A stretch of 42,685 bases of DNA, from IMG/VR virus record IMGVR_UViG_2563366963_000007; one strand, written 5' to 3'. The notes below the pieces were generated by a model, which ran no database searches, had not been told where the DNA came from, and saw nothing but the letters and a program-made list of their open reading frames with translations. How positions within the stretch are numbered: position 1 is the first letter of the stretch; each line of letters opens with the position of its first letter. A program made the translations under genes and the position numbers. The DNA comes from a virus (lineage: Duplodnaviria; Heunggongvirae; Uroviricota; Caudoviricetes). Positions 10,499 through 32,519 of the stretch are shown here, in pieces.

Positions 10499-11370
10499 AT
10501 ATGAGTGTGTCCGTTATACGTTGTGCGGACTTCAGTTATTGTGCCTTGTCGGTCCTGCACCTCTTGCCCTGCTAACACACTACCGCGAGTTGTGATATTA
10601 CCTGTTCCACCGTTATCTCCAGTGACAGAAATATCGTTACGGAATGTCGCTAATTTATCTACTACTAATGTCTCGGTAATATGCGTTGGACCAGCTAGTG
10701 TTATACCACCCGGAGCCCACGCGCTGATTGTTTGAGCTGTCAGCGATATTCTGTTCGCAGCAGTAACACTAACAGAACTCGTTGCTATAACGTTCACTAA
10801 ATCAGCATGTGCGTTAATTGTATCTGTCGCTGTGACATTAATAATATCAGCGTCTGCGTTAATTAATTTCCCACCATGGATATTAACTACATTTTCGCTA
10901 TTAATAGTAACATCTGCGCGTCCAAATATTTCTATTTCAGACTCACCGAGTATTTTTACCACGCCGTCCGGTACGCCCTGCCATGTCAGAGTGTGATTTT
11001 TTGTGTTATACGTCATCGTAGCCCCGTCACAGTATGCAGTGACATGATCATGGGGGTCATTGCTTGGCGGAGCTTTGTCGTCAATGTGCAGCCCGAGCAT
11101 AACTACACCGTTCCGCGTATCCCCACCCTCAGAAACAACAGTAACGGGATCGCCCACTGATGGTGCGCTCCAGTCGACGCGTTCTGAGGTGGCGTGAGTA
11201 AACCACTGCAGCCAGCCTGACTGGTGTTCGCCACCAAATGAGACTCGGCAGCGTGGAGGATTCATTTTAACTGCAGCTATCGTGCCGCGTTTAACTGCGT
11301 CACGCAGCCTGCGCGCGTTCTCCGCTGCAGCATATTCATCGTCCGATTGGGCCATAATAGTCGCCCTCAT
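10453..11370 (-). CDS. baseplate spike / assembly protein V-like
   Basis: 305-aa ORF; N-terminal pattern CRVSFGGEHQSGWLQWFTHATS...WSAPSVGD resembles gpV, with a C-terminal beta-helix-like repeat region. Confidence 0.65.
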   Translation of the reverse strand: MRATIMAQSDDEYAAAENARRLRDAVKRGTIAAVKMNPPRCRVSFGGEHQSGWLQWFTHATSERVDWSAPSVGDPVTVVSEGGDTRNGVVMLGLHIDDKAPPSNDPHDHVTAYCDGATMTYNTKNHTLTWQGVPDGVVKILGESEIEIFGRADVTINSENVVNIHGGKLINADADIINVTATDTINAHADLVNVIATSSVSVTAANRISLTAQTISAWAPGGITLAGPTHITETLVVDKLATFRNDISVTGDNGGTGNITTRGSVLAGQEVQDRQGTITEVRTTYNGHTHICPDGETQQPNQPMA

Positions 11371-24448: not shown

Positions 24449-25090
24449 TTATTTATCACTCCTGTAAATTGGAATTAACCATTTTCTAATCGTCGACGCT
24501 GCAGGTGGGTCAGAGTATTTCGCCACAAAAATACCGGATATGTATTGCACGCCACGCGATAATGGCGCTGTCGGGTTTTCAGTAAAAAAACGATCAGCCA
24601 GTTCAATGGCTTCGCTTTTTAATCTGTGCTGTGGTCGTCCTCCGCCCTTTGTTCCCAGGTATCGCGCCAGTTGTTTGAAACGGTAGGCGATGATTAACGG
24701 TCGCATCATCATATTGAAAAAATCGCGGGCATCGTTGTCAGCGCCTTGCGCTATCAACAGTGCAAAAAACAGATACGGGATTATGTACACTTCAGGAGAT
24801 ATACGAACCCGTTCACAAGTTGGTGGAGCCAACTCAATAAGTAAGTCAGCCAGCGGATTCCCCTTTTCTCCACGTTTGTAATAGCGATACAGCGGCCCGA
24901 TATCAAGTTCACTCACGTCGATTTCAGGATGCCCGGCAACGACTGTACGTATCTCTTCTGCCAGAGCGTCAAATATTGCCCCGGTCCGTTCAAGATAGAG
25001 CCTCCGGGTCGAACCGCGATCATCCAACGCCCGTAACATATCTAACCGGCTAACGAAAGTTTCAGGCCAGTCCTCATAGAAGGTTTTCAT
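24449..25090 (-). CDS. hypothetical protein (nin-region, unknown function)
   Basis: Start reassigned to the ATG at 25090 (MKTFYEDWPE...), with GAGGT 5 nt upstream; 213 aa. Confidence 0.45.
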   Translation of the reverse strand: MKTFYEDWPETFVSRLDMLRALDDRGSTRRLYLERTGAIFDALAEEIRTVVAGHPEIDVSELDIGPLYRYYKRGEKGNPLADLLIELAPPTCERVRISPEVYIIPYLFFALLIAQGADNDARDFFNMMMRPLIIAYRFKQLARYLGTKGGGRPQHRLKSEAIELADRFFTENPTAPLSRGVQYISGIFVAKYSDPPAASTIRKWLIPIYRSDK

Positions 25091-25333
25091 AATTACCTCG
25101 AATAATAAAAACTGCACTATTTGCACAATTTATTATTCGTTTTCACGCCGCTGAGTTCTATAAAAAAGAAAAAACCTCCGAGGCAGGGTTTTGTTATGGC
25201 TCGTTAAATCATCATCCAACTTTTTAGACTGAACGGTGATACTTGCAAATATTTGAAAATATGGGCTGGAACCCTATCTTATGATGTGCCTGGTAATTTA
25301 TATTGTTGGGTCTTTATATCATGAGGAATCACT

Positions 25334-25567
25334 ATGGGTACGTTAGGCAACCAGCCGTGCAGAAGTCGTTATGAGTTCGATGATTTTAATTTAGCCAATC
25401 GAGCTGCGGCTCTTACTAAGTTAGCAAAAGAAACTGGTGTATCGGTGGATACCTTAATCAAACTTGAAATTGCTATGCAACTGAATCGGCTCAACTCCAT
25501 CCTTATCGAAAACGGTGACAAGATGGACGAGAATCTGGCAGGTATTGGCGAGATACTGCAGAAGTGA
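25334..25567 (+). CDS. small protein with possible helix-turn-helix
   Basis: 77-aa ORF with GAGGA 7 nt upstream; segment LAKETGVSVDTLIKLE looks like a helix-turn-helix; first plus-strand gene of the accessory cassette. Confidence 0.4.
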   Translation: MGTLGNQPCRSRYEFDDFNLANRAAALTKLAKETGVSVDTLIKLEIAMQLNRLNSILIENGDKMDENLAGIGEILQK

Positions 25568-25573
25568 GAGTAG

Positions 25574-25600
25574 CCCCTCTTCTGAGGGGTTGCACATTTA
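25574..25600 (+). terminator. hairpin downstream of the 77-aa gene
   Basis: CCCCTC-TTCT-GAGGGG followed by TTGCACATTTAAAAT (weak U-tract). Confidence 0.4.
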
Positions 25601-25866
25601 AAATATTAAGGGCGGTCTTCTTCACGTACACAGTCACCTGGTCGAATCGTTCACGCATACTGAGTACAAAAAATCTCAACGATAAGATCAGGTTAGACCT
25701 GTATTTTCCAGAAACATATAGACGCCTAAAAAAACACTAAACTCATGATTATCATGTATGTTTTTACTGGAAACATTGAACCATCCACAATACAGCGTAA
25801 AAAGCAAGCAATTCACAAGATTTTAAAGTGATTTATCTGGAAGACTTTACTACTAACAGTTAATAT

Positions 25867-25911
25867 CGTACCAGAAGTGCAGAATTTGCACTTTTACAGG
25901 AATGTGGTACG
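25867..25911. promoter_or_regulatory. nested palindrome upstream of the ImmA-like gene
   Basis: CGTACC-AGAA-GTGCAGAATTTGCAC-TTTTACAGGAATGT-GGTACG, about 55 nt upstream of the 25966 ATG. Confidence 0.4.
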
Positions 25912-25965
25912 GAACATGCTGTCTATATTTCAACCAATAATCGTAATGCAGTAACTGGAGGAGCT

Positions 25966-26454
25966 ATGGCTACCAACCCAAGAGAGCACGCCCGGCGAGT
26001 GCTGGACACGTTCTGGTGCGGGCGTGGTTTCCCTGTTGATCCAGCGAAAATTGCTCACGACATGGGATTAGATGTTTTTATTACCGATCTTCCTGGGAAA
26101 GTTTCTGGCGCACTGATTAAACAAAAAGATCAAGATCCAGCGATCTTTCTAAACAGTGATGACAACAAAGTTCGTCAACGTTTTTCATGTGGGCATGAGT
26201 TGGGGCATTACATCGCCCGGCAAGCATCGCATAGCGATGAATATGAGTACGTTGATTTACGTGGCGAAACCGCAAGCGCCGGAACGCATCCTGATGAAAT
26301 TTTTGCAAACAAGTTCGCAGCAGAACTTCTGATGCCGGTAGATGAGGTCAGAAAACTGCACGCTGACGGTCAACCAAGTTATATAATGGCGCATTATTTT
26401 GGCGTATCTGACGATGCGATGACTTATCGTTTAAAGAACTTGAGGTTGGGGTAA
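25966..26454 (+). CDS. ImmA/IrrE-family zinc metallopeptidase
   Basis: 162-aa ORF with GGAGG upstream; canonical HEXXH (CGHELGHYI) followed by EIFANKFAAELLMP, the signature of the ImmA/IrrE (M78) family. Confidence 0.8.
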   Translation: MATNPREHARRVLDTFWCGRGFPVDPAKIAHDMGLDVFITDLPGKVSGALIKQKDQDPAIFLNSDDNKVRQRFSCGHELGHYIARQASHSDEYEYVDLRGETASAGTHPDEIFANKFAAELLMPVDEVRKLHADGQPSYIMAHYFGVSDDAMTYRLKNLRLG

Positions 26455-26463
26455 CGCTTTAAA

Positions 26464-27069
26464 ATGCCATCGGATGACGATTTTAACAGCCGTTTCAAAC
26501 AGGAAGTAGCACGCAGACTGAAGGATTCCCTCAACCTACACCGTCAGTTAGCAGAAGAGGTTGAGCCGGAGGACGATGAAACTCCGGTTCAGTCTCCTGA
26601 CGAAGCTTCACCTCAGCCAAAGGTTTCGCACGCCCCCAAAAAAACGGCTGTCCGTATTCGCGGAATAGCCAGAAAAAGAGCTGCCGAAGCTCGCAAAATG
26701 GCTGTAGCTGCGTCTAGCAAAAGAATTCCAACTGCTACACCCTCTCAACAAGTCACCCGTACTGAGAGTAAAATCTTGACCGAGTTCACATCTGTGAAAC
26801 AGGTGAATTCACTTGATACCGAGCATGAGCGCAAACAACTCAACAACAAAGATTTTGAAGCAGAAATCGCTCTAAAAAAACGATACGGGAAATGGTTCCT
26901 GATTATCCTTGCTTTCCAACTTCTGATAATGAATGGTGTATTTATTGCCGACGGCGCAGGTAAGCTGGAATTTGAGGATTTAACACTACAGTTGTACATG
27001 GGCGGTACTTTGACAGAGGTATTCGGCCTCGTGCTGGTCGTGACAAAATACCTTTTTAAACGCAAGTAA
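26464..27069 (+). CDS. membrane protein with charged N-terminal region and C-terminal two-helix anchor
   Basis: 201-aa ORF starting 7 nt after the peptidase stop codon; two hydrophobic helices at the C-terminus (WFLIILAFQLLIMNGVFIADGAG and GGTLTEVFGLVLVVTKYLF). Confidence 0.55.
   Translation: MPSDDDFNSRFKQEVARRLKDSLNLHRQLAEEVEPEDDETPVQSPDEASPQPKVSHAPKKTAVRIRGIARKRAAEARKMAVAASSKRIPTATPSQQVTRTESKILTEFTSVKQVNSLDTEHERKQLNNKDFEAEIALKKRYGKWFLIILAFQLLIMNGVFIADGAGKLEFEDLTLQLYMGGTLTEVFGLVLVVTKYLFKRK
26998..27069 (+). repeat. direct repeat copy A (3' end of the membrane-protein gene)
   Basis: 72-bp segment about 92 percent identical to 30421-30492. Confidence 0.85.
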
Positions 27070-27314
27070 CTCTCTCGGTCCAACAGTCTTTCGAAGGCCC
27101 TGATCAAAGGGCCTTGATAAATTAGCAGTGCGTTGAAAACAGATAGTTATTCCCATCAGCTCCAACGTAATACACATCAAAAAAATCACCATTCTTTTGC
27201 TCTAACGTCAACACCTACCCTTAAAAAAATAATTCTCCAAGAATGAGAAAGTTATTGTGTGTATTAGATAAGATATGAGCTGACACATCTATGGCGTGGA
27301 GCCAAATTTAATAT

Positions 27315-27346
27315 GACAGTCCGCTCTGTGCCATAAGCGGACTGTC
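27315..27346 (-). terminator. 11-bp perfect inverted repeat hairpin
   Basis: GACAGTCCGCT-CTGTGCCATA-AGCGGACTGTC about 190 nt downstream of the 27532..28230 minus-strand gene; AT-rich flanks. Confidence 0.35.
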
Positions 27347-27531
27347 AATAAACAGATTCACTTGTAAATCTTGAAGCTATACATATTTACTTTCAATGAT
27401 AAATAAAAGAACTATCCAAAAATCACTGAGAGCATATTTTAACTAACCCTCCGCTACTATTAACATAAATTTCACCCAACCATAATTAAATTGATACATA
27501 TAGCAACTTACCTTGATACGAATCATCTGGG

Positions 27532-28230
27532 TTATATTTTTCCATATTTTTTTCCGTCAAATCGAATCATGCCAGGATCAAGAAAATTAATTAAATCGAT
27601 TAACGCGTGCTGTATTCTGATTAGCCTTTCTTTATAAATTCCGATATCTCTTGTCATATTTATCACTTCATTGTTTAAATCTAAAAAAAATGGCTCATTG
27701 ATAAAGCAATTTTCCTTTGTGAAACTGCCGTAACCTATGCAATCAAATCCAGTATCTGTTGATATCAGCATCTTTTCTGCAATAGCTCTCTGCTCTCCTA
27801 TGAAAAACATAAAATACTGACCAAAGACGTCTGTTTGGATTAATGAGTTAATATTGTTCTGTAATCTAATAAACTCCCTCATTTTTTTATTTTTTTCTAG
27901 GCTAAGGTATTGAATGTCTATGCGGGCAGCTTCTGTCCATGCAAAAAACTGGGAAAAAAGAAAAACAGTATTGTTGATAACATAATCTTGTTGGCGCTTA
28001 TTCCCATTATGATAAAACTCTTCAATGAACCCCAATTCTAATATATTATAAATACGGCTTTGTAAGTCTGAAGCTGAGCGAATTAACGGTTCAATATAGT
28101 ACTGATGTTTTCTCCTTACATCCAGTGATTCATTGAGCTTGTTTATTCTATTCTGATTATAAGTAGATATAGCAATAGAGATTATAGCTATTGCACCACT
28201 AATAAAGCTTGAAATTAATGCCGTACCCAT
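27532..28230 (-). CDS. hypothetical membrane-anchored protein (orphan, low GC)
   Basis: 232-aa ORF with one N-terminal hydrophobic helix and a C-terminal domain of unknown family; strongly AT-rich codon usage. Confidence 0.5.
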   Translation of the reverse strand: MGTALISSFISGAIAIISIAISTYNQNRINKLNESLDVRRKHQYYIEPLIRSASDLQSRIYNILELGFIEEFYHNGNKRQQDYVINNTVFLFSQFFAWTEAARIDIQYLSLEKNKKMREFIRLQNNINSLIQTDVFGQYFMFFIGEQRAIAEKMLISTDTGFDCIGYGSFTKENCFINEPFFLDLNNEVINMTRDIGIYKERLIRIQHALIDLINFLDPGMIRFDGKKYGKI

Positions 28231-28793
28231 CTAAAAGTCCTTTGATTCTTGCTTGGTTAACAAAATGACATAATTTTATTTAATGCCATAACAACTTAAC
28301 AATATATCATAATATGATTATTATGGTGTAGCTTGTCGCATCTACGCTCCATTACAAACAGATGTAAGATATAACCTATATGTTTTAGCCAGCAAATTCG
28401 AAAGCATTCAAAGTAGTCTCATCGAACTCTCGAAACCCTATGTCTTCGGGTATAAAATATTTAAATCCATTTGCATAATATCGACTCATGTTTATTATAT
28501 TCTCCCCATTCACCATTAAGATTTGACATTATTTTCAACAATCGGTTATTGCAAGATTGAAATATATTTTTACTTGACACAATATTCCATGTAGCCCAGC
28601 GATTCGACTTACCCCCAACTATACGGACAATCTAAATTAAATCGATGATTTTTTGATACATTCTCCTCTCTCCATTACTTTATGTTTTTGTTCCCCAAAA
28701 ATACCTTGCTCTCTAAAAAATAATTGTTCTTTAAGTTCAAAATCGAGATCTACATGAGCGTTAGATACAAAGCTAATATGTTGAAATGTCTTT

Positions 28794-28802
28794 CCCCCCC
28801 CC
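28794..28802. repeat. homopolymeric C9 tract
   Basis: Nine consecutive C in an ORF-free AT-rich stretch. Confidence 0.8.
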
Positions 28803-29418
28803 ATAACGGCATTGTTATCTAAACTATGTTACACAAATATAATATTACCCTTTCAACGTAATCCAAGAATAAGATTAATGCCATTATATATATCATAAAT
28901 ATGATATTTTGTATATTTTTATCATTTAGCCTTGATTGTACTAGGTGTACTCTCAACGAAGTAGGGAAAGTCTGTTCCTCGCTCACAGCTGCCCTTCAGT
29001 AAGCGAAAAAATGCCTACTCGGTGCCATATACAGCCATTGTTATTAACAGCAGGGAATAATTCAAAACTGAAATTAAATATCTACCTTTTACAGTAGAAA
29101 TAGTTCCTCCAGGACACTATCCATTGCCGGGCACAATCACTCGGGGTATAACGATATAAAATATGTTCATGATAGTGCAGGTTCGTATATTAAGTTCAGC
29201 AGCGAAAACATGCCTTACAGGTTTCCGGTTTTGGGAGCGTCGTTACAGGATCCTGCGCATACCGTTCCCATCTGTTGAATTAAAGGTTTCACAGCCTTTG
29301 CCGATATCACCTTTTACCTTACCTGTGATGCGTTCAGTGCTCAGCGTTGTTTACTGTAGCTCTCGGGACTGATTACAGACCGCGTCTTAAAAACCAATCC
29401 TTACTCTAAAGGGAATTC

Positions 29419-30342
29419 ATGAGATTAAAATACTCAGTACTCTTACTCGCCATTGCCCTTACAGGCTGTGATAACAAAAAAGATGAGATCGGTTGTTCTT
29501 CGGAAATAACCCAGTCAGCTCTCATGGATTTATTAAAAAAATCTGCTTATGAAGGACTCTCTGAACAGGTCGATAAATACCCTGATGTTACTAATCAGAC
29601 CAAACGAAGCACACTGGACAAGATCAAACTAGCCATCTCTGAGATCTCCACAACATCAAGTGACACGGGCAGCACAATGAAAACTTGTGAAGGGACCGTG
29701 ACGATGACTCTATCTGCGAACGAGTACGTCCAGCTTTCAGATGCTTACAGAAAGAATTTTAATCGTAATCTCGATAAGCAAATGGAAAGCCTGTTTTTGG
29801 AGAACAACGCAAACGCCTTTTCAAAACGTATCACCTACACCGTGCAGGCGACCGACGATCAGAAAAACGTTTTTGTAAAAACCTCTACTGATAATCCGAT
29901 ATCAGTGGGCGCCGCTTTACTGACATCGCTTTCCATTATCACCCCGATCGTTGAGCAGCAGAAAATCCAGCAGGCTAAGGATGCCCAACAGAGTCAAATT
30001 GAAGCGGAACAACAGGTGCAACTCAGGGCGCAAGAACAGGCTAAGTATGAGGCGGAGAAGCAAATAGAGAGACAGGCACAACTTCAGCCGCAAAAAGCTG
30101 ACAACCTTGATCAGTCCCGAATGGCATTTGCGAATGCCGACTCTGATTTGAGTACCGTCTGGAGCAAGTTAACCCCGGCGAAGAAAAAAGATTTGCTGCC
30201 TTCTCAGCGTCAGTGGATCAAAACTAAGGATGCTATGTGCGGTAAAGTTTCAATGCAGGGAACAGATGCTGAAGTCAAGAAAATGGTCGACTGCCAGACG
30301 CAAATGACCCTTTCAAGAATCGCTTTCCTCAGAAACCAATAA
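29419..30342 (+). CDS. lipoprotein with DUF1311 / LprI-like C-terminal domain
   Basis: 307-aa ORF; signal peptide plus lipobox (LLAIALTGC); Gln-rich coiled-coil middle; C-terminal LPSQRQWIKTKDAMC...MVDCQTQMTLSRIAFLRN resembles DUF1311. Confidence 0.6.
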   Translation: MRLKYSVLLLAIALTGCDNKKDEIGCSSEITQSALMDLLKKSAYEGLSEQVDKYPDVTNQTKRSTLDKIKLAISEISTTSSDTGSTMKTCEGTVTMTLSANEYVQLSDAYRKNFNRNLDKQMESLFLENNANAFSKRITYTVQATDDQKNVFVKTSTDNPISVGAALLTSLSIITPIVEQQKIQQAKDAQQSQIEAEQQVQLRAQEQAKYEAEKQIERQAQLQPQKADNLDQSRMAFANADSDLSTVWSKLTPAKKKDLLPSQRQWIKTKDAMCGKVSMQGTDAEVKKMVDCQTQMTLSRIAFLRNQ

Positions 30343-30358
30343 CTGAAGTCTCCTTCAA

Positions 30359-30388
30359 GCTGGCGCCAGGTGTTAACCTGGTGCCAGC
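30359..30388. promoter_or_regulatory. 30-bp near-perfect palindrome after the lipoprotein gene
   Basis: GCTGGCGCCAGGT-GTTAAC-CTGGTGCCAGC, 17 nt after the stop codon; no U-tract. Confidence 0.4.
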
Positions 30389-30420
30389 TTAGTCATCAAG
30401 TGCATATGTAACTGTTTTAT

Positions 30421-30492
30421 ATGGGCGGTACTTTGACAGAGGTATTCGGTCTCGTGCTGGTCGTGGTCAAATACCTTTTTAAGCGCAAATAG
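30421..30492 (+). repeat. direct repeat copy B (orphan 3' gene fragment)
   Basis: Duplicates the last 24 codons of the 26464..27069 gene (MGGTLTEVFGLVLVVVKYLFKRK) with a stop immediately upstream in frame. Confidence 0.85.
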
Positions 30493-30516
30493 AGTATTTC
30501 CGCCCCAAACAACCTG

Positions 30517-31335
30517 TCAAAATGCTGAATTAGCAACGGATATAGCCGACTTTTTCCCCATTACCATCAATTTATCCAGTGTCATACTTCGCAGATTGTC
30601 GCTGTGGATCACCAGATACCCTGCCCGCTCAGCGATCTCTTTGAAAGCGTCAAAGGTCATCAGATGTTCGCCTTTGGCAACATGGCGCATCCCGGTCACT
30701 TTTCCATTTTTGATAGTGGTGATAAAAGAAAAATCTGGAATGGTTGGGTGATTTTCATCGAGTAGCAGGCAGTGGATGTATTCAATCGCCTCTAACATTT
30801 GCGTCTGTGACAGTTGTTCTATGTGAGAGACGGCGAAGCGTTGATGAATCATGGTGTAGGCATCGGGATACATCATGCCTTTCTTGCCGACCAGTATATT
30901 AACGGCATCACGCAAGGGAGTACGGTCATCGGTAGTTGTACTCCGCCTCTCTGGACGCTGGCTAAAATAACAATCTTCCAGCTTTTCGAAAACTTCCCAG
31001 GCCTGTTCTGTTTCCAGCATTTTGGCATGGCGAGCTGCGCCGCGTTCTGTCCAGAGAATGAGGGATCGGGTATGTTTAGCAACTGACTGACTATCTGTCA
31101 GTCTGTTTTTGAAGTCGCGTAATTCATTACCTTCCAGCTTAAAAAAATGCTTTCCTACGACAAATCTGGCGATGTTGCGCTTGAAGTTTTGCTGGATACC
31201 ATTTACTTCCGTGCCATACAAACTGGCAAGCAATTCAGTAGTGATGACGGGAAGTTGGTTATGATGTAGCGGAGAAAGGGATTCCGCAGATATTTGGACT
31301 GTCATCGCAGTGGCCTCACTTAGTGTTTTTTTCAT
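30517..31335 (-). CDS. putative antirepressor (ORF6N-domain protein)
   Basis: Start reassigned to the ATG at 31335; N-terminal LPVITTELLASLYGTEVNGIQQNFKRNIARFVVGKHFFKLEG matches the ORF6N domain of phage antirepressors as recalled. Confidence 0.5.
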   Translation of the reverse strand: MKKTLSEATAMTVQISAESLSPLHHNQLPVITTELLASLYGTEVNGIQQNFKRNIARFVVGKHFFKLEGNELRDFKNRLTDSQSVAKHTRSLILWTERGAARHAKMLETEQAWEVFEKLEDCYFSQRPERRSTTTDDRTPLRDAVNILVGKKGMMYPDAYTMIHQRFAVSHIEQLSQTQMLEAIEYIHCLLLDENHPTIPDFSFITTIKNGKVTGMRHVAKGEHLMTFDAFKEIAERAGYLVIHSDNLRSMTLDKLMVMGKKSAISVANSAF

Positions 31336-31465
31336 CACCACCAGCGACGCCAATCATCTGGTGGTGAGCTGTGCAGGGTTGGCGTAACCGGCTAAGTGAA
31401 CCCGGCGCTTCCACAGAAGCCCCCACACAGCCCACCATAATGCGAATGTGGCCGTGCCTAACACA

Positions 31466-31486
31466 TAAAAAAACCGCTAACGCGGC
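31466..31486 (-). terminator. short hairpin plus U-run
   Basis: Minus-strand RNA AGCCGC-GUUA-GCGGUU followed by UUUUUAU, between the 31578..31799 gene and the antirepressor gene. Confidence 0.35.
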
Positions 31487-31577
31487 TATGCGTCACTTAG
31501 ATATCCGGGACGCCAATCCCGGCAACCGATTTTGCGGCTGCGCGGAAACTATAGCCCCGGACTTTTTCTAAGTCAAT

Positions 31578-31799
31578 TCAATCAACTTCAAACCTCCGGT
31601 GTTCACATTCCATACACTCAACGGGAACATCATCGCGATGCAAGTCCACATATCCGACCCGCTTATACAACTCAATAATGTCCGGTAACGTGACCAGATG
31701 TTTTTCCGGTTCCAACACCTCAGCCCGGGTTACTTTGTAATCTGAAATATAGAGCACTATCCGCCCGTTCCGTGGTAACTCCAGTTTATCGCCAAACAT
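31578..31799 (-). CDS. hypothetical protein
   Basis: 73-aa ORF with ATG start preceded by GGAGGGAAAGGAC. Confidence 0.35.
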   Translation of the reverse strand: MFGDKLELPRNGRIVLYISDYKVTRAEVLEPEKHLVTLPDIIELYKRVGYVDLHRDDVPVECMECEHRRFEVD

Positions 31800-31986
31800 G
31801 TCCTTTCCCTCCGGGAAACCAATGATATTGACGATATTACACCCACAACGATTCGTTTTACGTCACTCCGCAATCACCATACATCCGTACCAATCCGTAC
31901 ATTCCCACCACAAAAACGATATTTGACAGGCACTGGTAATAGATTTTTAACGCGTGCTATTGCCTTGCGACGTATTTTCAATTCAC

Positions 31987-32211
31987 TCATACAGCCTCCC
32001 TGCTCTCAAACGGACGAATATTGGTTGGTTCTCCACACGGAATAGCCCAACCCAGCCAGGTAAATATTTTCAGGTCACACATCGCGTCATACCGTTCGCC
32101 AGGATTCACATCCACCATGCTGCAGGCAATTTCATATTGTTCACCATTATCAGTCAGTGCGATCTGGTCATTAATAAACCGGGGCACAAATGCAAGAAAA
32201 AGTTCTTTCAT
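31987..32211 (-). CDS. hypothetical protein
   Basis: 74-aa ORF in the early-right operon; overlaps the upstream gene by 4 nt. Confidence 0.35.
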   Translation of the reverse strand: MKELFLAFVPRFINDQIALTDNGEQYEIACSMVDVNPGERYDAMCDLKIFTWLGWAIPCGEPTNIRPFESREAV

Positions 32212-32519
32212 GAAATTCTCCGCTCAAAATAAACAAACTGATTCACCGCTCCGATCGGCATTTCGAGTTTTTCTGCGATATCCTGGCGATTAATACCCGA
32301 CTGATGTAATTCCCTTGCCAGCTCGATATCTTCCTGGAGGTATTTCACTGACTGGTGATAATTACCCCGCAGATACATACAGATTTTCAGCTCGCGCGCT
32401 TTTGTGCGTACCGCTGCACCGGTTCTGCCAATAAGCTGCCCTATACGTTCAACTGTCATGCTGCCCGCACATTGTTTGATGATTACGACTTCCGCACGCA
32501 CCCACCGTTTGTATTTCAT
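32208..32519 (-). CDS. putative DNA-binding protein
   Basis: 103-aa ORF with two helix-turn-helix-like segments (MTVERIGQLIGRTGAAVRTKAREL; GINRQDIAEKLEMPIGAVNQF). Confidence 0.35.
   Translation of the reverse strand: MKYKRWVRAEVVIIKQCAGSMTVERIGQLIGRTGAAVRTKARELKICMYLRGNYHQSVKYLQEDIELARELHQSGINRQDIAEKLEMPIGAVNQFVYFERRIS

What the first reader, a model, noticed from the sequence alone, without database searches (positions are those of the whole stretch)
26998..30492. Low-GC island bracketed by a duplicated gene 3' end
The last 72 bp of the membrane-protein gene (26998-27069) recur at 30421-30492 at about 92 percent identity, where they form an orphan 24-codon fragment with a stop immediately upstream in frame. 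The 3.35 kb between the copies is much more AT-rich than the rest of the prophage and carries an orphan membrane protein gene (27532..28230), about 1.2 kb without a credible ORF, and a DUF1311-like lipoprotein gene (29419..30342). This is the footprint of cassette gain or replacement by recombination at a short conserved gene end.
Basis: seen in the sequence. Interest (0 to 1): 0.65.

Follow-up and report, generated by a model that had tools for sequence, protein, structure and literature searches.

The report
Prophage defence hotspot with duplicated gene end
An E. coli ST131 prophage carries two separately acquired accessory-gene modules between two copies of an 81-base gene end, and related genomes show that copy being used as a recombination handle, which makes this a clear but fairly ordinary example of phage mosaic evolution.

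Summary
An 81-nt direct repeat (26988-27068 / 30411-30491, 89%) brackets a 3.4-kb low-GC segment in a lambdoid prophage found unchanged in about 400 complete E. coli genomes, mostly ST131.

The site lies between a membrane-protein gene and the ORF6N antirepressor gene. It is a hypervariable hotspot with at least seven occupancy states in related prophages, including the defence systems PD-T4-3 and PDC-M25.

The repeat is recombinationally active:
- One near-identical prophage (GPEC172) has lost the island by a crossover inside the 29-nt identical tract.
- An Escherichia whittamii prophage has stacked two cassette sets by an unequal crossover in the orphan copy.

The island is composite, not one cassette:
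- 27260-28989 is the "lysogenic protein" cassette already known from the Z region of the P2-like phage P2-EC58.
- 28990-30420 is a separate LprI lipoprotein module that always travels with the orphan.

The AT-rich cassette has its own boundaries. These are 23-24-nt palindromic sites (GTCCGCT..GTGCCA..AGCGGAC and GTCCGC..CGCTC..AGCRGAC). They delimit dozens of different cassettes in P2-like and lambdoid hotspots, sometimes in arrays.

The duplicated gene end is a new member of a known kind. The palindromic boundary sites are the part worth following up.

The parts
25966..26454 (+). ImmA/IrrE-type metalloprotease gene, conserved left flank of the hotspot
   Evidence: PF06114 at 7.7e-18 and PADLOC capP at 2.4e-25. 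Present in all occupancy states.
26464..27069 (+). 201-aa protein gene with two predicted C-terminal membrane helices. Its last 81 nt are repeat copy 1.
   Evidence: ORF listing. Matches phrog_5346 only. The 3' end is the 'A-type' allele, shared with L003, L004, L010 and L013.
26988..27069 (+). Direct repeat copy 1 (functional gene end)
27094..27115 (+). Hairpin AAGGCCCT-GATCAA-AGGGCCTT just after the gene. The L003/L012/L024 lineages diverge from the window at 27091.
   Evidence: Read from the sequence. Breakpoints.
27262..27342 (+). About 81-nt boundary element. It consists of a 57-nt leader plus palindromic site HP-B (27319-27342, GTCCGCTCTGTGCCATAAGCGGAC).
   Evidence: Matches the annotated 'left inverted repeat' of P2-EC58. 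Found at 2546 places in 2149 of 5426 E. coli genomes. All contexts diverge within 1-3 nt after GCGGA(C). L004, L010 and L013 switch cassette at 27341/27342. Scores as a terminator on the minus strand.
27532..28230 (-). 232-aa 'lysogenic protein' gene, the cargo of the AT-rich cassette
   Evidence: 92.9% aa identity over residues 23-232 by tblastn and 91.4% over the whole 232 aa to ORF1 of the P2-EC58 Z region. dN/dS is 0.25. About 290 homologues, none with a Pfam domain. AF2 pLDDT 87: a helical bundle with no specific fold match. Weak PADLOC RTasTM hit at 1.8e-5.
28231..28969 (.). ORF-free upstream part of the P2-type cassette (promoter region plus decayed sequence, including a C9 run at 28794-28802)
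   Evidence: Alignment to P2-EC58 and GDAR2-2 shows indels that are not multiples of three and no conserved ORF. The P2-EC58 record annotates -35/-10 and an RBS here.
28970..28989 (+). Truncated palindromic site HP-A (GTCTGTTCCTCGCTCACAGC|), the right end of the P2-type cassette
   Evidence: Aligns to the start of the annotated 'right inverted repeat' of P2-EC58. Homology stops at 28989.
28990..30410 (+). LprI module: upstream region, lipoprotein gene 29419-30342, and terminator-like hairpin 30357-30390
   Evidence: PF07007. Carried with the orphan in L002, L003, L012, L014 and L024, with left boundaries at 28976, 29010 or 29018. L010 keeps only the remnant from 30221.
30411..30492 (+). Direct repeat copy 2: orphan 3' end of a different ('B-type') allele of the 201-aa gene
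   Evidence: The seven differences in 72 nt cause only one amino-acid change.
30517..31353 (-). ORF6N-domain antirepressor gene, conserved right flank
   Evidence: PF10543 at 1e-21 and phrog_4792.

Best explanation
The segment is an accessory-gene and anti-phage-defence hotspot in the early (nin-like) region of a lambdoid prophage. It lies between a membrane-protein gene and the convergent ORF6N antirepressor gene.

It currently holds two independently acquired modules:
- A 1.7-kb AT-rich cassette encoding a membrane-anchored 232-aa 'lysogenic protein'. This is the same cassette that sits in the Z region of some P2-like phages. It is bounded by the same short palindromic sites, which also serve as a terminator.
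- A 1.4-kb LprI-family lipoprotein module.

Origin of the repeat (inferred). The 81-bp orphan is the 3' end of another allele of the membrane-protein gene. It was left behind when a cargo-bearing segment was anchored by homology in or upstream of that gene, and its far end was joined non-homologously 81 bp before the recipient gene's stop codon. This is homology-facilitated illegitimate recombination, or unequal recombination, between two diverged phages.

Later use of the repeat (shown by comparison). The two copies have since served as short homology arms:
- A crossover between them deletes the whole island and leaves an intact chimeric gene.
- An unequal crossover between the orphan of one phage and the full gene end of another stacks cassette sets in tandem.
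- Part of the cargo is replaced at other recurrent breakpoints.

Function (inferred from context only). The cargo genes are lysogen-expressed morons, probably for phage exclusion or envelope protection.
For: Hotspot status.
- At least seven occupancy states lie between the same flanks: empty, the window state, GIY-YIG+LprI, PDC-M25, a four-cassette array with PD-T4-3, SMEK/methyltransferase, and GIY-YIG+LprI+PDC-M25.
- Alternative fillings include PD-T4-3 at 1.7e-137 and PDC-M25A/B at 3e-157 and 5e-96.

Composite island.
- 27260-28989 is 86% identical to the P2-EC58 Z region and to a P2-like prophage, where it lies between the tail-fibre-assembly and sheath genes.
- The LprI module has its own distribution and left boundaries.

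Deletion through the repeat.
- In GPEC172 the gene abuts ORF6N. Its end follows copy 1 up to 26997 and copy 2 from 27035 on, so the crossover lies in the 29-nt identical tract.
- The rest of that prophage has 9 differences in 34 kb outside the repeat overlap: 6 of 12 mismatches in 22.2 kb and 3 in 12.3 kb.
- About 403 genomes carry the island, and more distant relatives also have LprI plus the orphan. The empty state is therefore derived.

Unequal crossover.
- L024 equals L003 up to the orphan and equals L004 from the orphan on, overlapping only in the repeat. The orphan keeps the L003-type 1-nt deletion, then switches to the A-type end and the downstream spacer.

Allelic origin.
- Seven nucleotide differences in 72 nt give only one amino-acid change.

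Gene under selection.
- dN/dS is 0.25 for the 232-aa gene. Coding identity is 94% against 86% for the whole cassette.
- Homologues lie in P2 remnants and next to SIR2-HerA.
Against: - The founding non-homologous junction at 30411 is therefore inferred, not observed.
- The direction of the GPEC172 difference (loss rather than gain) rests on parsimony, not on a phylogeny.
- No function was tested. The 232-aa protein has no informative fold match, and its PADLOC hit is weak.
- LprI has no defence annotation and no homologue in the phage collection.
- The crossover tracts are very short (29 nt, and about 14 nt in L024). This is at or below what RecA normally uses, so a phage recombinase or another route has to be assumed.
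Confidence: 0.7

Rival explanations
1. The empty arrangement (gene directly abutting ORF6N, as in GPEC172) is ancestral for this prophage lineage. The 3.4-kb island entered as a circle or linear fragment carrying one hybrid copy of the gene end, by Campbell-type homologous integration. The repeat is then the product of integration rather than an old leftover.
For: The GPEC172 sequence is exactly what an unoccupied target would look like if the exchange point is in the 29-nt tract. Integration and excision are mirror images and cannot be told apart from one pair. The B-type end next to ORF6N forms an intact, translatable gene in GPEC172.
Against: The LprI-plus-orphan arrangement is shared by prophages 3-9% diverged from the window and by another species. 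GPEC172 is nearly identical to the ST131 prophage everywhere else. One empty genome stands against about 403 occupied ones. The first 10 nt of the orphan (ACTGTTTTAT) differ from GPEC172 (ACAGTTGTAC), as expected for loss by a crossover downstream of them.
Confidence: 0.12
2. The island is a small integrative element that inserts site-specifically into the 3' end of the membrane-protein gene and brings a replacement gene end. The two copies are then attL and attR, as for elements that target tRNA genes.
For: Direct repeats flank the island, and the target gene stays intact. Loss in GPEC172 is precise.
Against: No recombinase is present in the island. The only ORFs with support are the 232-aa protein and LprI, and neither has a recombinase domain. 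The content between the repeats is composite, and its parts have different boundaries in relatives. Crossover positions inside the repeat differ between events: the 29-nt tract in GPEC172 and the last ~14 nt in L024.
Confidence: 0.05
3. The orphan arose by a local tandem duplication within one genome and has simply drifted since.
For: Two copies in direct orientation 3.4 kb apart.
Against: The substitution pattern is that of two functional alleles, with 6 of 7 changes silent or inside one codon. The orphan's downstream context (ORF6N) differs from that of the gene end (spacer plus boundary element). Both contexts occur separately in other phages. Other lineages carry frameshifted orphans, so drift does occur but does not explain the window's copy.
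Confidence: 0.04
4. The AT-rich cassette, and cassettes in this and other phage hotspots generally, are moved by a dedicated site-specific recombinase acting on the two palindromic sites. The sites share arms but differ in their centres, so cassettes are exchanged rather than excised.
For: See the section on the most novel reading. Switch points lie inside the site centres in four cassettes found in two contexts each. Arrays have A-B junctions. No empty P2 Z site exists in 1764 genomes.
Against: No recombinase was identified. The sites also look like ordinary terminators. The number of independent informative events is small. The primary instances were collected with an exact pattern, which inflates conservation inside the site.
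Confidence: 0.2

Closest known systems
Foreign-DNA cassettes of the Z/fun region of P2-like coliphages (GenBank AJ512683, phage P2-EC58 'proviral Z-region, ORF1'; Nilsson, Karlsson & Haggard-Ljungquist 2004, known to me by title only)
   Same: Same gene (91-93% aa identity). Same 760-nt ORF-free upstream stretch. Same left inverted repeat and the first 20 nt of the right one. Same AT-richness.
   Different: Here the cassette sits in the early region of a lambdoid prophage, not between tail genes G and FI. The right repeat is cut and fused to an unrelated LprI module.
Phage moron and defence hotspots (P2/P4 hotspots, Rousset et al. 2022, PMC9122126; hotspot survey, bioRxiv 10.1101/2024.10.15.618418)
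   Same: Conserved flanks, many alternative fillings, known defence systems among them, and low GC.
   Different: This particular hotspot (ImmA-partner gene / ORF6N in a lambdoid prophage) and its duplicated gene end were not found in the papers I could search. Rousset's P2 hotspot is the cos-proximal old/tin one, not Z.
Relaxed homologous recombination between temperate phages driven by Rad52-like recombinases (De Paepe et al. 2014, PMC3945230)
   Same: Mosaic borders at short, diverged stretches of homology, and exchange among lambdoid prophages.
   Different: The homology used here is only 81 nt at 89% identity, with 14-29-nt identical tracts. Which recombinase acts was not tested.
PeSL regulatory cassettes of T4-type phages (Arbiol et al. 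2010, PMC2839356)
   Same: Short conserved stem-loop and terminator motifs flank non-essential genes in hyperplastic regions. Recombination between them gives insertions, deletions and replacements.
   Different: PeSLs include a strong early promoter and occur in virulent T4-type phages. The sites here are two 23-24-nt palindromes with a shared arm sequence, in temperate P2-like and lambdoid phages. No mini-circles have been shown.
Integron cassette arrays
   Same: Arrays of mostly single-gene cassettes separated by a conserved structured junction.
   Different: No integrase is adjacent. The junction is not an attC (no R/L boxes were looked for or seen). Genes lie in both orientations. The cassette boundary falls in the centre of the palindromes.

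Membership tests
Phage accessory-gene / defence hotspot | Same conserved flanking genes with different content in related phages | tested here: met
   At least seven occupancy states between the 201-aa gene and ORF6N.
Phage accessory-gene / defence hotspot | Known defence systems among the alternative fillings | tested here: met
   PD-T4-3 at 1.7e-137, PDC-M25A/B, and a SMEK-domain protein.
Phage accessory-gene / defence hotspot | The cargo in this window protects against phage | not testable with these tools
   Only context and a weak PADLOC hit (RTasTM 1.8e-5) are available. A plaque assay is needed.
P2 Z-region cassette (P2-EC58 ORF1 type) | Homologous gene plus flanking inverted repeats | tested here: met
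   86% nt identity over 27260-28989. The left repeat is complete and the right repeat is present for 20 nt.
P2 Z-region cassette (P2-EC58 ORF1 type) | Location between tail genes G and FI of a P2-like phage | tested here: not met
   The neighbours here are ImmA, ORF6N, a replicative helicase and Q antiterminator genes.
Integrative element with att duplication | Recombinase gene carried by the element | tested here: not met
   No recombinase domain in any ORF of 27070-30420.
Integrative element with att duplication | Fixed crossover position in the repeat | tested here: not met
   The GPEC172 crossover is in the 29-nt tract. The L024 crossover is in the last ~14 nt.
Integron | intI integrase with attI next to the array | tested here: not met
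   No integrase near the hotspot. The prophage integrase is about 12 kb away, at the prophage end.
Integron | attC sites between cassettes | not tested
   The junctions are A-B double palindromes. No attC model was run.
PeSL-like mobile regulatory cassette | Stem-loop that terminates transcription | tested here: inconclusive
   HP-B matches a terminator pattern on the minus strand (13-bp stem followed by a T-rich tail). This is a consensus scan only.
PeSL-like mobile regulatory cassette | Strong sigma-70 promoter within the motif | tested here: not met
   Promoter-like hits in 26900-30650 are at chance level (12 found, 11.7 expected), and none lies in the element.
Known RNA family | Match to an Rfam model | tested here: not met
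   No credible hit in 26900-30600 at E up to 1.

The most novel reading that the evidence does not exclude
The two palindromic sites that bound the AT-rich cassette are HP-B (GTCCGCT-NN-GTGCCA-NN-AGCGGAC) and HP-A (GTCCGC-NNNT-CGCTC-NN-AGCRGAC). They may be heterospecific targets of an unidentified site-specific recombinase, with the same binding arms and different crossover centres. Cassettes would then be swapped between P2-like, lambdoid and other prophage hotspots by paired B-with-B and A-with-A exchanges. This would be a natural counterpart of recombinase-mediated cassette exchange, building integron-like arrays without an adjacent integrase.
Probability: 0.2. Interest if true: 0.8.

Novelty: new member of a known kind. 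Interest (0 to 1): 0.45.

Why it matters
The locus gives a fully documented example, in a clinically dominant E. coli lineage, of how a prophage hotspot gains, stacks and loses accessory genes through an 81-bp leftover of a neighbouring gene. The empty, single and stacked states are all available for comparison.

It links a lambdoid hotspot to the classical P2 Z hotspot through a shared cassette and shared boundary sites. Defence cargo therefore appears to circulate between unrelated phage families.

It identifies short palindromic sites that mark cassette boundaries in hundreds of phage loci. If these sites are recombination targets rather than mere terminators, they would explain how such hotspots are filled. 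They would also offer a sequence tag for finding new defence genes.

Tried and rejected
- **Rfam.** A scan of 26900-30600 gave only chance-level hits, snoZ101 and mir-81.
- **ORF-free stretch.** I looked for a hidden or frameshifted gene in 28231-28969 by comparing three versions. No ORF is conserved and the indels break frames, so I treat it as decayed or regulatory DNA.
- **Earlier LprI context.** I looked for the LprI module without the orphan. None turned up in E. coli genomes, IMG/VR or the phage collection (no LprI homologue at all).
- **L004 pseudogene.** The 'zinc ribbon' pseudogene of L004 is not a longer version of the orphan.
- **L002 second copy.** L002 does not carry a second upstream copy of the gene end. 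The 'query 1492' coordinate was the repeat cross-matching.
- **Literature.** A search for the site sequences gave no paper. The Nilsson 2004 and Odegrip 2006 papers are not held, so what they say about the P2 inverted repeats is unknown to me beyond the GenBank annotation.
- **'Class 2' hotspot.** This hotspot (after the helicase-loader gene, before a DinI-like gene) has no megablast match in E. coli complete genomes, so I did not pursue it.
- **Extra hairpin.** A GTCCG...CGGAC hairpin at window 10509-10530 is within chance expectation, about 2 per shuffled window.
- **Orphan as a small gene.** I considered the orphan as a 23-aa hydrophobic peptide gene. I rejected this because other lineages have a frameshift in it and no ribosome-binding site is evident.


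Full report
**What the window is.** The 6.5 kb around the finding is 100% identical to the chromosome of E. coli O25:H4 ST131 strains, including EC958 and JJ1886. It occurs essentially unchanged in about 403 of 5426 complete E. coli genomes. RefSeq annotation and my domain scans give this order:
- lysis genes, Q antiterminator, DUF1364 and DUF1367
- an ImmA/IrrE metalloprotease gene (25966-26454, +)
- a 201-aa gene with two C-terminal membrane helices (26464-27069, +)
- the island
- an ORF6N antirepressor gene (30517-31353, -)
- small genes, a replicative helicase and the immunity region

The prophage sits next to a tRNA-Leu gene, with its integrase at the window's right end. The island therefore lies in the early, nin-like region of a lambdoid prophage.

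**Checking the observation.** The repeat is real and is the only long direct repeat in 25000-32500: 26988-27068 against 30411-30491, 81 nt at 89%. The orphan has an in-frame TAA three codons upstream of its ATG. GC is 0.329 in 27070-28989, 0.441 in 28990-30420 and 0.482 for the window. The ORFs are as described, and 28231-29418 has no ORF above 69 aa. The seven differences between the 72-nt copies change only one amino acid, T to V. That is the signature of two functional alleles, not of a decaying duplicate.

**Is the repeat a dispersed element?** No. An IMG/VR scan with a degenerate 72-nt pattern found ten stretches, all at this locus. In E. coli genomes it occurs only as the gene end and the orphan.

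**A single-copy version exists.** I searched with an artificial 'empty site', the full gene joined to the sequence downstream of the orphan. One genome, the chicken isolate GPEC172, matched end to end at 99.4%. There the gene directly abuts ORF6N. Its end follows copy 1 through ACAGTTGTAC and follows copy 2 at every diagnostic position from GGTCTC onward. The exchange therefore lies within the 29-nt tract ATGGGCGGTACTTTGACAGAGGTATTCGG that the two copies share. Elsewhere the GPEC172 prophage differs from the window at only 12 positions in 22.2 kb, six of them inside the repeat, and at 3 positions in 12.3 kb. Prophages 3-9% diverged, and one from another species, already carry LprI plus the orphan. 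The empty state is therefore most simply a recent deletion by recombination between the two copies. This rests on parsimony, because I could not build a phylogeny.

**The site is a hotspot.** Related prophages fill the same interval differently:
- nothing (GPEC172)
- the window's content
- a GIY-YIG/T5orf172 cassette plus LprI plus orphan (APEC20/16; an IMG/VR contig)
- a two-gene AAA-ATPase system with no orphan (GF131)
- a four-cassette array ending in a GIY-YIG gene, then a 120-nt LprI remnant plus orphan (IMG/VR L010)
- a 5.1-kb SMEK/methyltransferase set joined to the last 13 nt of the gene end (L013)
- in Escherichia whittamii, the GIY-YIG+LprI set followed by the AAA-ATPase set

PADLOC identifies PD-T4-3 (1.7e-137) and PDC-M25A/B (3e-157, 5e-96) among these. 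This is an anti-phage defence hotspot.

**The orphan as a crossover arm.** The E. whittamii locus equals the APEC20/16 type up to the orphan and equals the GF131 type from the orphan onward. The two similarities overlap only in the repeat. Its orphan keeps the APEC-type 1-nt deletion and GACT variant. It then switches, within the last ~14 nt, to the A-type end (AAACGCAAGTAA) and continues into the spacer that normally follows the full-length gene. That is an unequal crossover between one phage's orphan and another phage's intact gene end, and it stacked two cassette sets. Together with the GPEC172 deletion, this shows the repeat acts as a recombination handle.

**How the repeat arose.** The left edge of the orphan is the same in all lineages, about 20 nt after the LprI terminator hairpin at 30357-30390. 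Nothing upstream of it resembles the gene. LprI was never found without the orphan. I infer a single founding event. In it, a cargo-bearing segment anchored by homology in the gene region was joined non-homologously 81 nt before the stop of a recipient gene of another allele. L013 shows a different junction at -13, so the gene end has been hit more than once. This step is inference.

**The island is composite.** Window 27260-28989 is 86% identical to GenBank AJ512683, 'Bacteriophage P2-EC58 proviral Z-region, ORF1'. It is also 86% identical to a P2-like prophage, where it lies between the tail-fibre-assembly and tail-sheath genes. The 232-aa protein is 91-93% identical to that ORF1 ('putative lysogenic protein'). 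Coding DNA is 94% identical against 86% overall, and dN/dS is 0.25, so the gene is maintained. The 760 nt upstream has frame-breaking indels and no conserved ORF.

The protein family has about 290 detectable members across Proteobacteria and no Pfam domain. It gives a confident helical-bundle model with an N-terminal membrane helix (pLDDT 87), no specific fold match and a weak PADLOC match to a reverse-transcriptase-associated membrane protein (1.8e-5). Homologues sit in a P2 remnant in Providencia and next to SIR2-HerA in a xanthomonad. Its function is unknown. A lysogen-expressed exclusion or abortive-infection role is my guess from context.

The second module, 28990-30410, carries a lipoprotein with a C-terminal LprI/DUF1311 domain.

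**Cassette boundary sites.** The P2-EC58 record annotates left and right inverted repeats. The left one corresponds to window 27262-27342. GF131, L010 and L013 all share the window's sequence up to 27341/27342 and then diverge. This roughly 81-nt element occurs at 2546 places in 2149 of 5426 E. coli genomes:
- after gene G of P2-like prophages, with different fillings
- in a CPS-53-like prophage
- downstream of nanQ in strain HS
- in a Nissle 1917 island

In an alignment of eleven contexts, all sequences diverge within 1-3 nt after ...GTCCGCTCTGTGCCANNAGCGGA(C).

With fuzzy matching I counted 168 copies of this site (HP-B), with 54 upstream and 77 downstream sequence clusters. I counted 62 copies of a second site, HP-A (GTCCGC-NNNT-CGCTC-NN-AGCRGAC), with 37 upstream and 15 downstream clusters.

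Cassettes run from HP-B to HP-A and are 0.55-5.8 kb long, forming 27 clusters among 44. Arrays have HP-A, 18 nt, then HP-B between cassettes. The window has HP-B at 27319-27342 and an HP-A cut after AGC at 28989, where the LprI module begins. The primary instances were selected with an exact pattern, so conservation inside the site is partly by construction. The sharp loss of similarity outside it is not.

**Where the switch lies.** Four cassettes each occur behind two unrelated upstream contexts: L042/L010, L064 and L047/L087, L069/L118, and L105/L135. In these, positions 8-9 of HP-B follow the context and positions 16-17 follow the cassette, so the switch is within GTGCCA. Two cases for HP-A place it at CGCTC|NN. 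One of the L010 cassettes also occurs in a P2 Z site (L138).

Among 1764 E. coli genomes with P2 Z flanks, none has an empty site. The smallest filling is about 430 nt. Shared arms with different centres, exchange without excision, and arrays are what heterospecific recombinase sites would give. However, HP-B also scores as the terminator of the 232-aa gene, no recombinase candidate exists, and the informative events are few. I therefore rate this reading at about 0.2. I keep short-homology recombination at conserved terminators as the default, as described for lambdoid phages (PMC3945230) and for PeSL motifs in T4-type phages (PMC2839356).

**Comparison with what is known.** Hotspots of defence genes in prophages, AT-rich morons, and mosaic borders at short homologies are established. 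The 232-aa cassette and its inverted repeats have been in GenBank since the P2-EC58 work. I did not find the following described in the texts I could search (key older papers are not held):
- this particular lambdoid hotspot
- the documented deletion and stacking through an 81-bp orphaned gene end
- the sharing of cassette and boundary sites between P2-like and lambdoid hotspots
- the two-site architecture with arrays

**Verdict.**
The gene end is used in recombination for loss and stacking, but the island is composite and its AT-rich half came with its own boundary sites.
- The finding itself is a new member of a known kind, of moderate interest.
- The boundary-site system is the lead that could be more than that.

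Noticed in passing
window 29419-29450: A type I-E CRISPR spacer (ATGAGATTAAAATACTCAGTACTCTTACTCGC) carried by more than 100 complete E. coli genomes matches the first 32 nt of the LprI gene exactly. A functional ATG PAM lies on the protospacer strand.
   Followed up: partly
window 26172-26206: Another annotated CRISPR array (strain JX21CE8) has a 35-nt perfect match inside the ImmA/IrrE gene. I did not inspect the array.
   Followed up: no
window 3811-4866: An IS5-family transposase ORF (3842..4810) lies in a segment that is absent from the otherwise near-identical GPEC172 prophage. It looks like an IS insertion in the tail-gene region of the ST131 prophage.
   Followed up: partly
window 27000-30500 (other genomes: H5, H70, H71, H152): A few ST131 genomes carry an IS1 copy inside the island or the LprI module.
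   Followed up: no
window 28794-28802: A run of nine C (G9 directly after an ATG on the minus strand) lies in the ORF-free stretch. P2-EC58 has CATCTCCCC at the same place, so it is not conserved. It is a possible slippage-prone tract of no evident function.
   Followed up: partly
L002 (NZ_CP182365.1) 1-4000; L029 (Nissle 1917): In strain Br_54_kylling everything left of window 28976 is replaced by an island with a short site-specific integrase gene and an ETEC_3214-family gene. The same island in Nissle 1917 has an HP-B-type hairpin beside it. The junction in L002 lies inside the HP-A remnant.
   Followed up: partly
E. coli genomes with P2-like prophages; L155: None of 1764 genomes with P2 Z-region flanks has an empty Z site. 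The smallest filling is about 430 nt of apparently decayed sequence (THO-015).
   Followed up: partly
window 25966-27069: The ImmA/IrrE protease (PADLOC capP 2.4e-25) is followed 10 nt later by the 201-aa two-helix membrane protein, on the strand opposite to the surrounding phage genes. This may be a regulated two-gene module in its own right.
   Followed up: no
L118 and about 40 other IMG/VR loci ('class 2'): The same HP-A/HP-B junctions bound a hotspot between a P-like helicase-loader/activator gene and a DinI-like gene in lambdoid phages. These phages have no megablast match in E. coli complete genomes and are presumably from other Enterobacteriaceae.
   Followed up: partly
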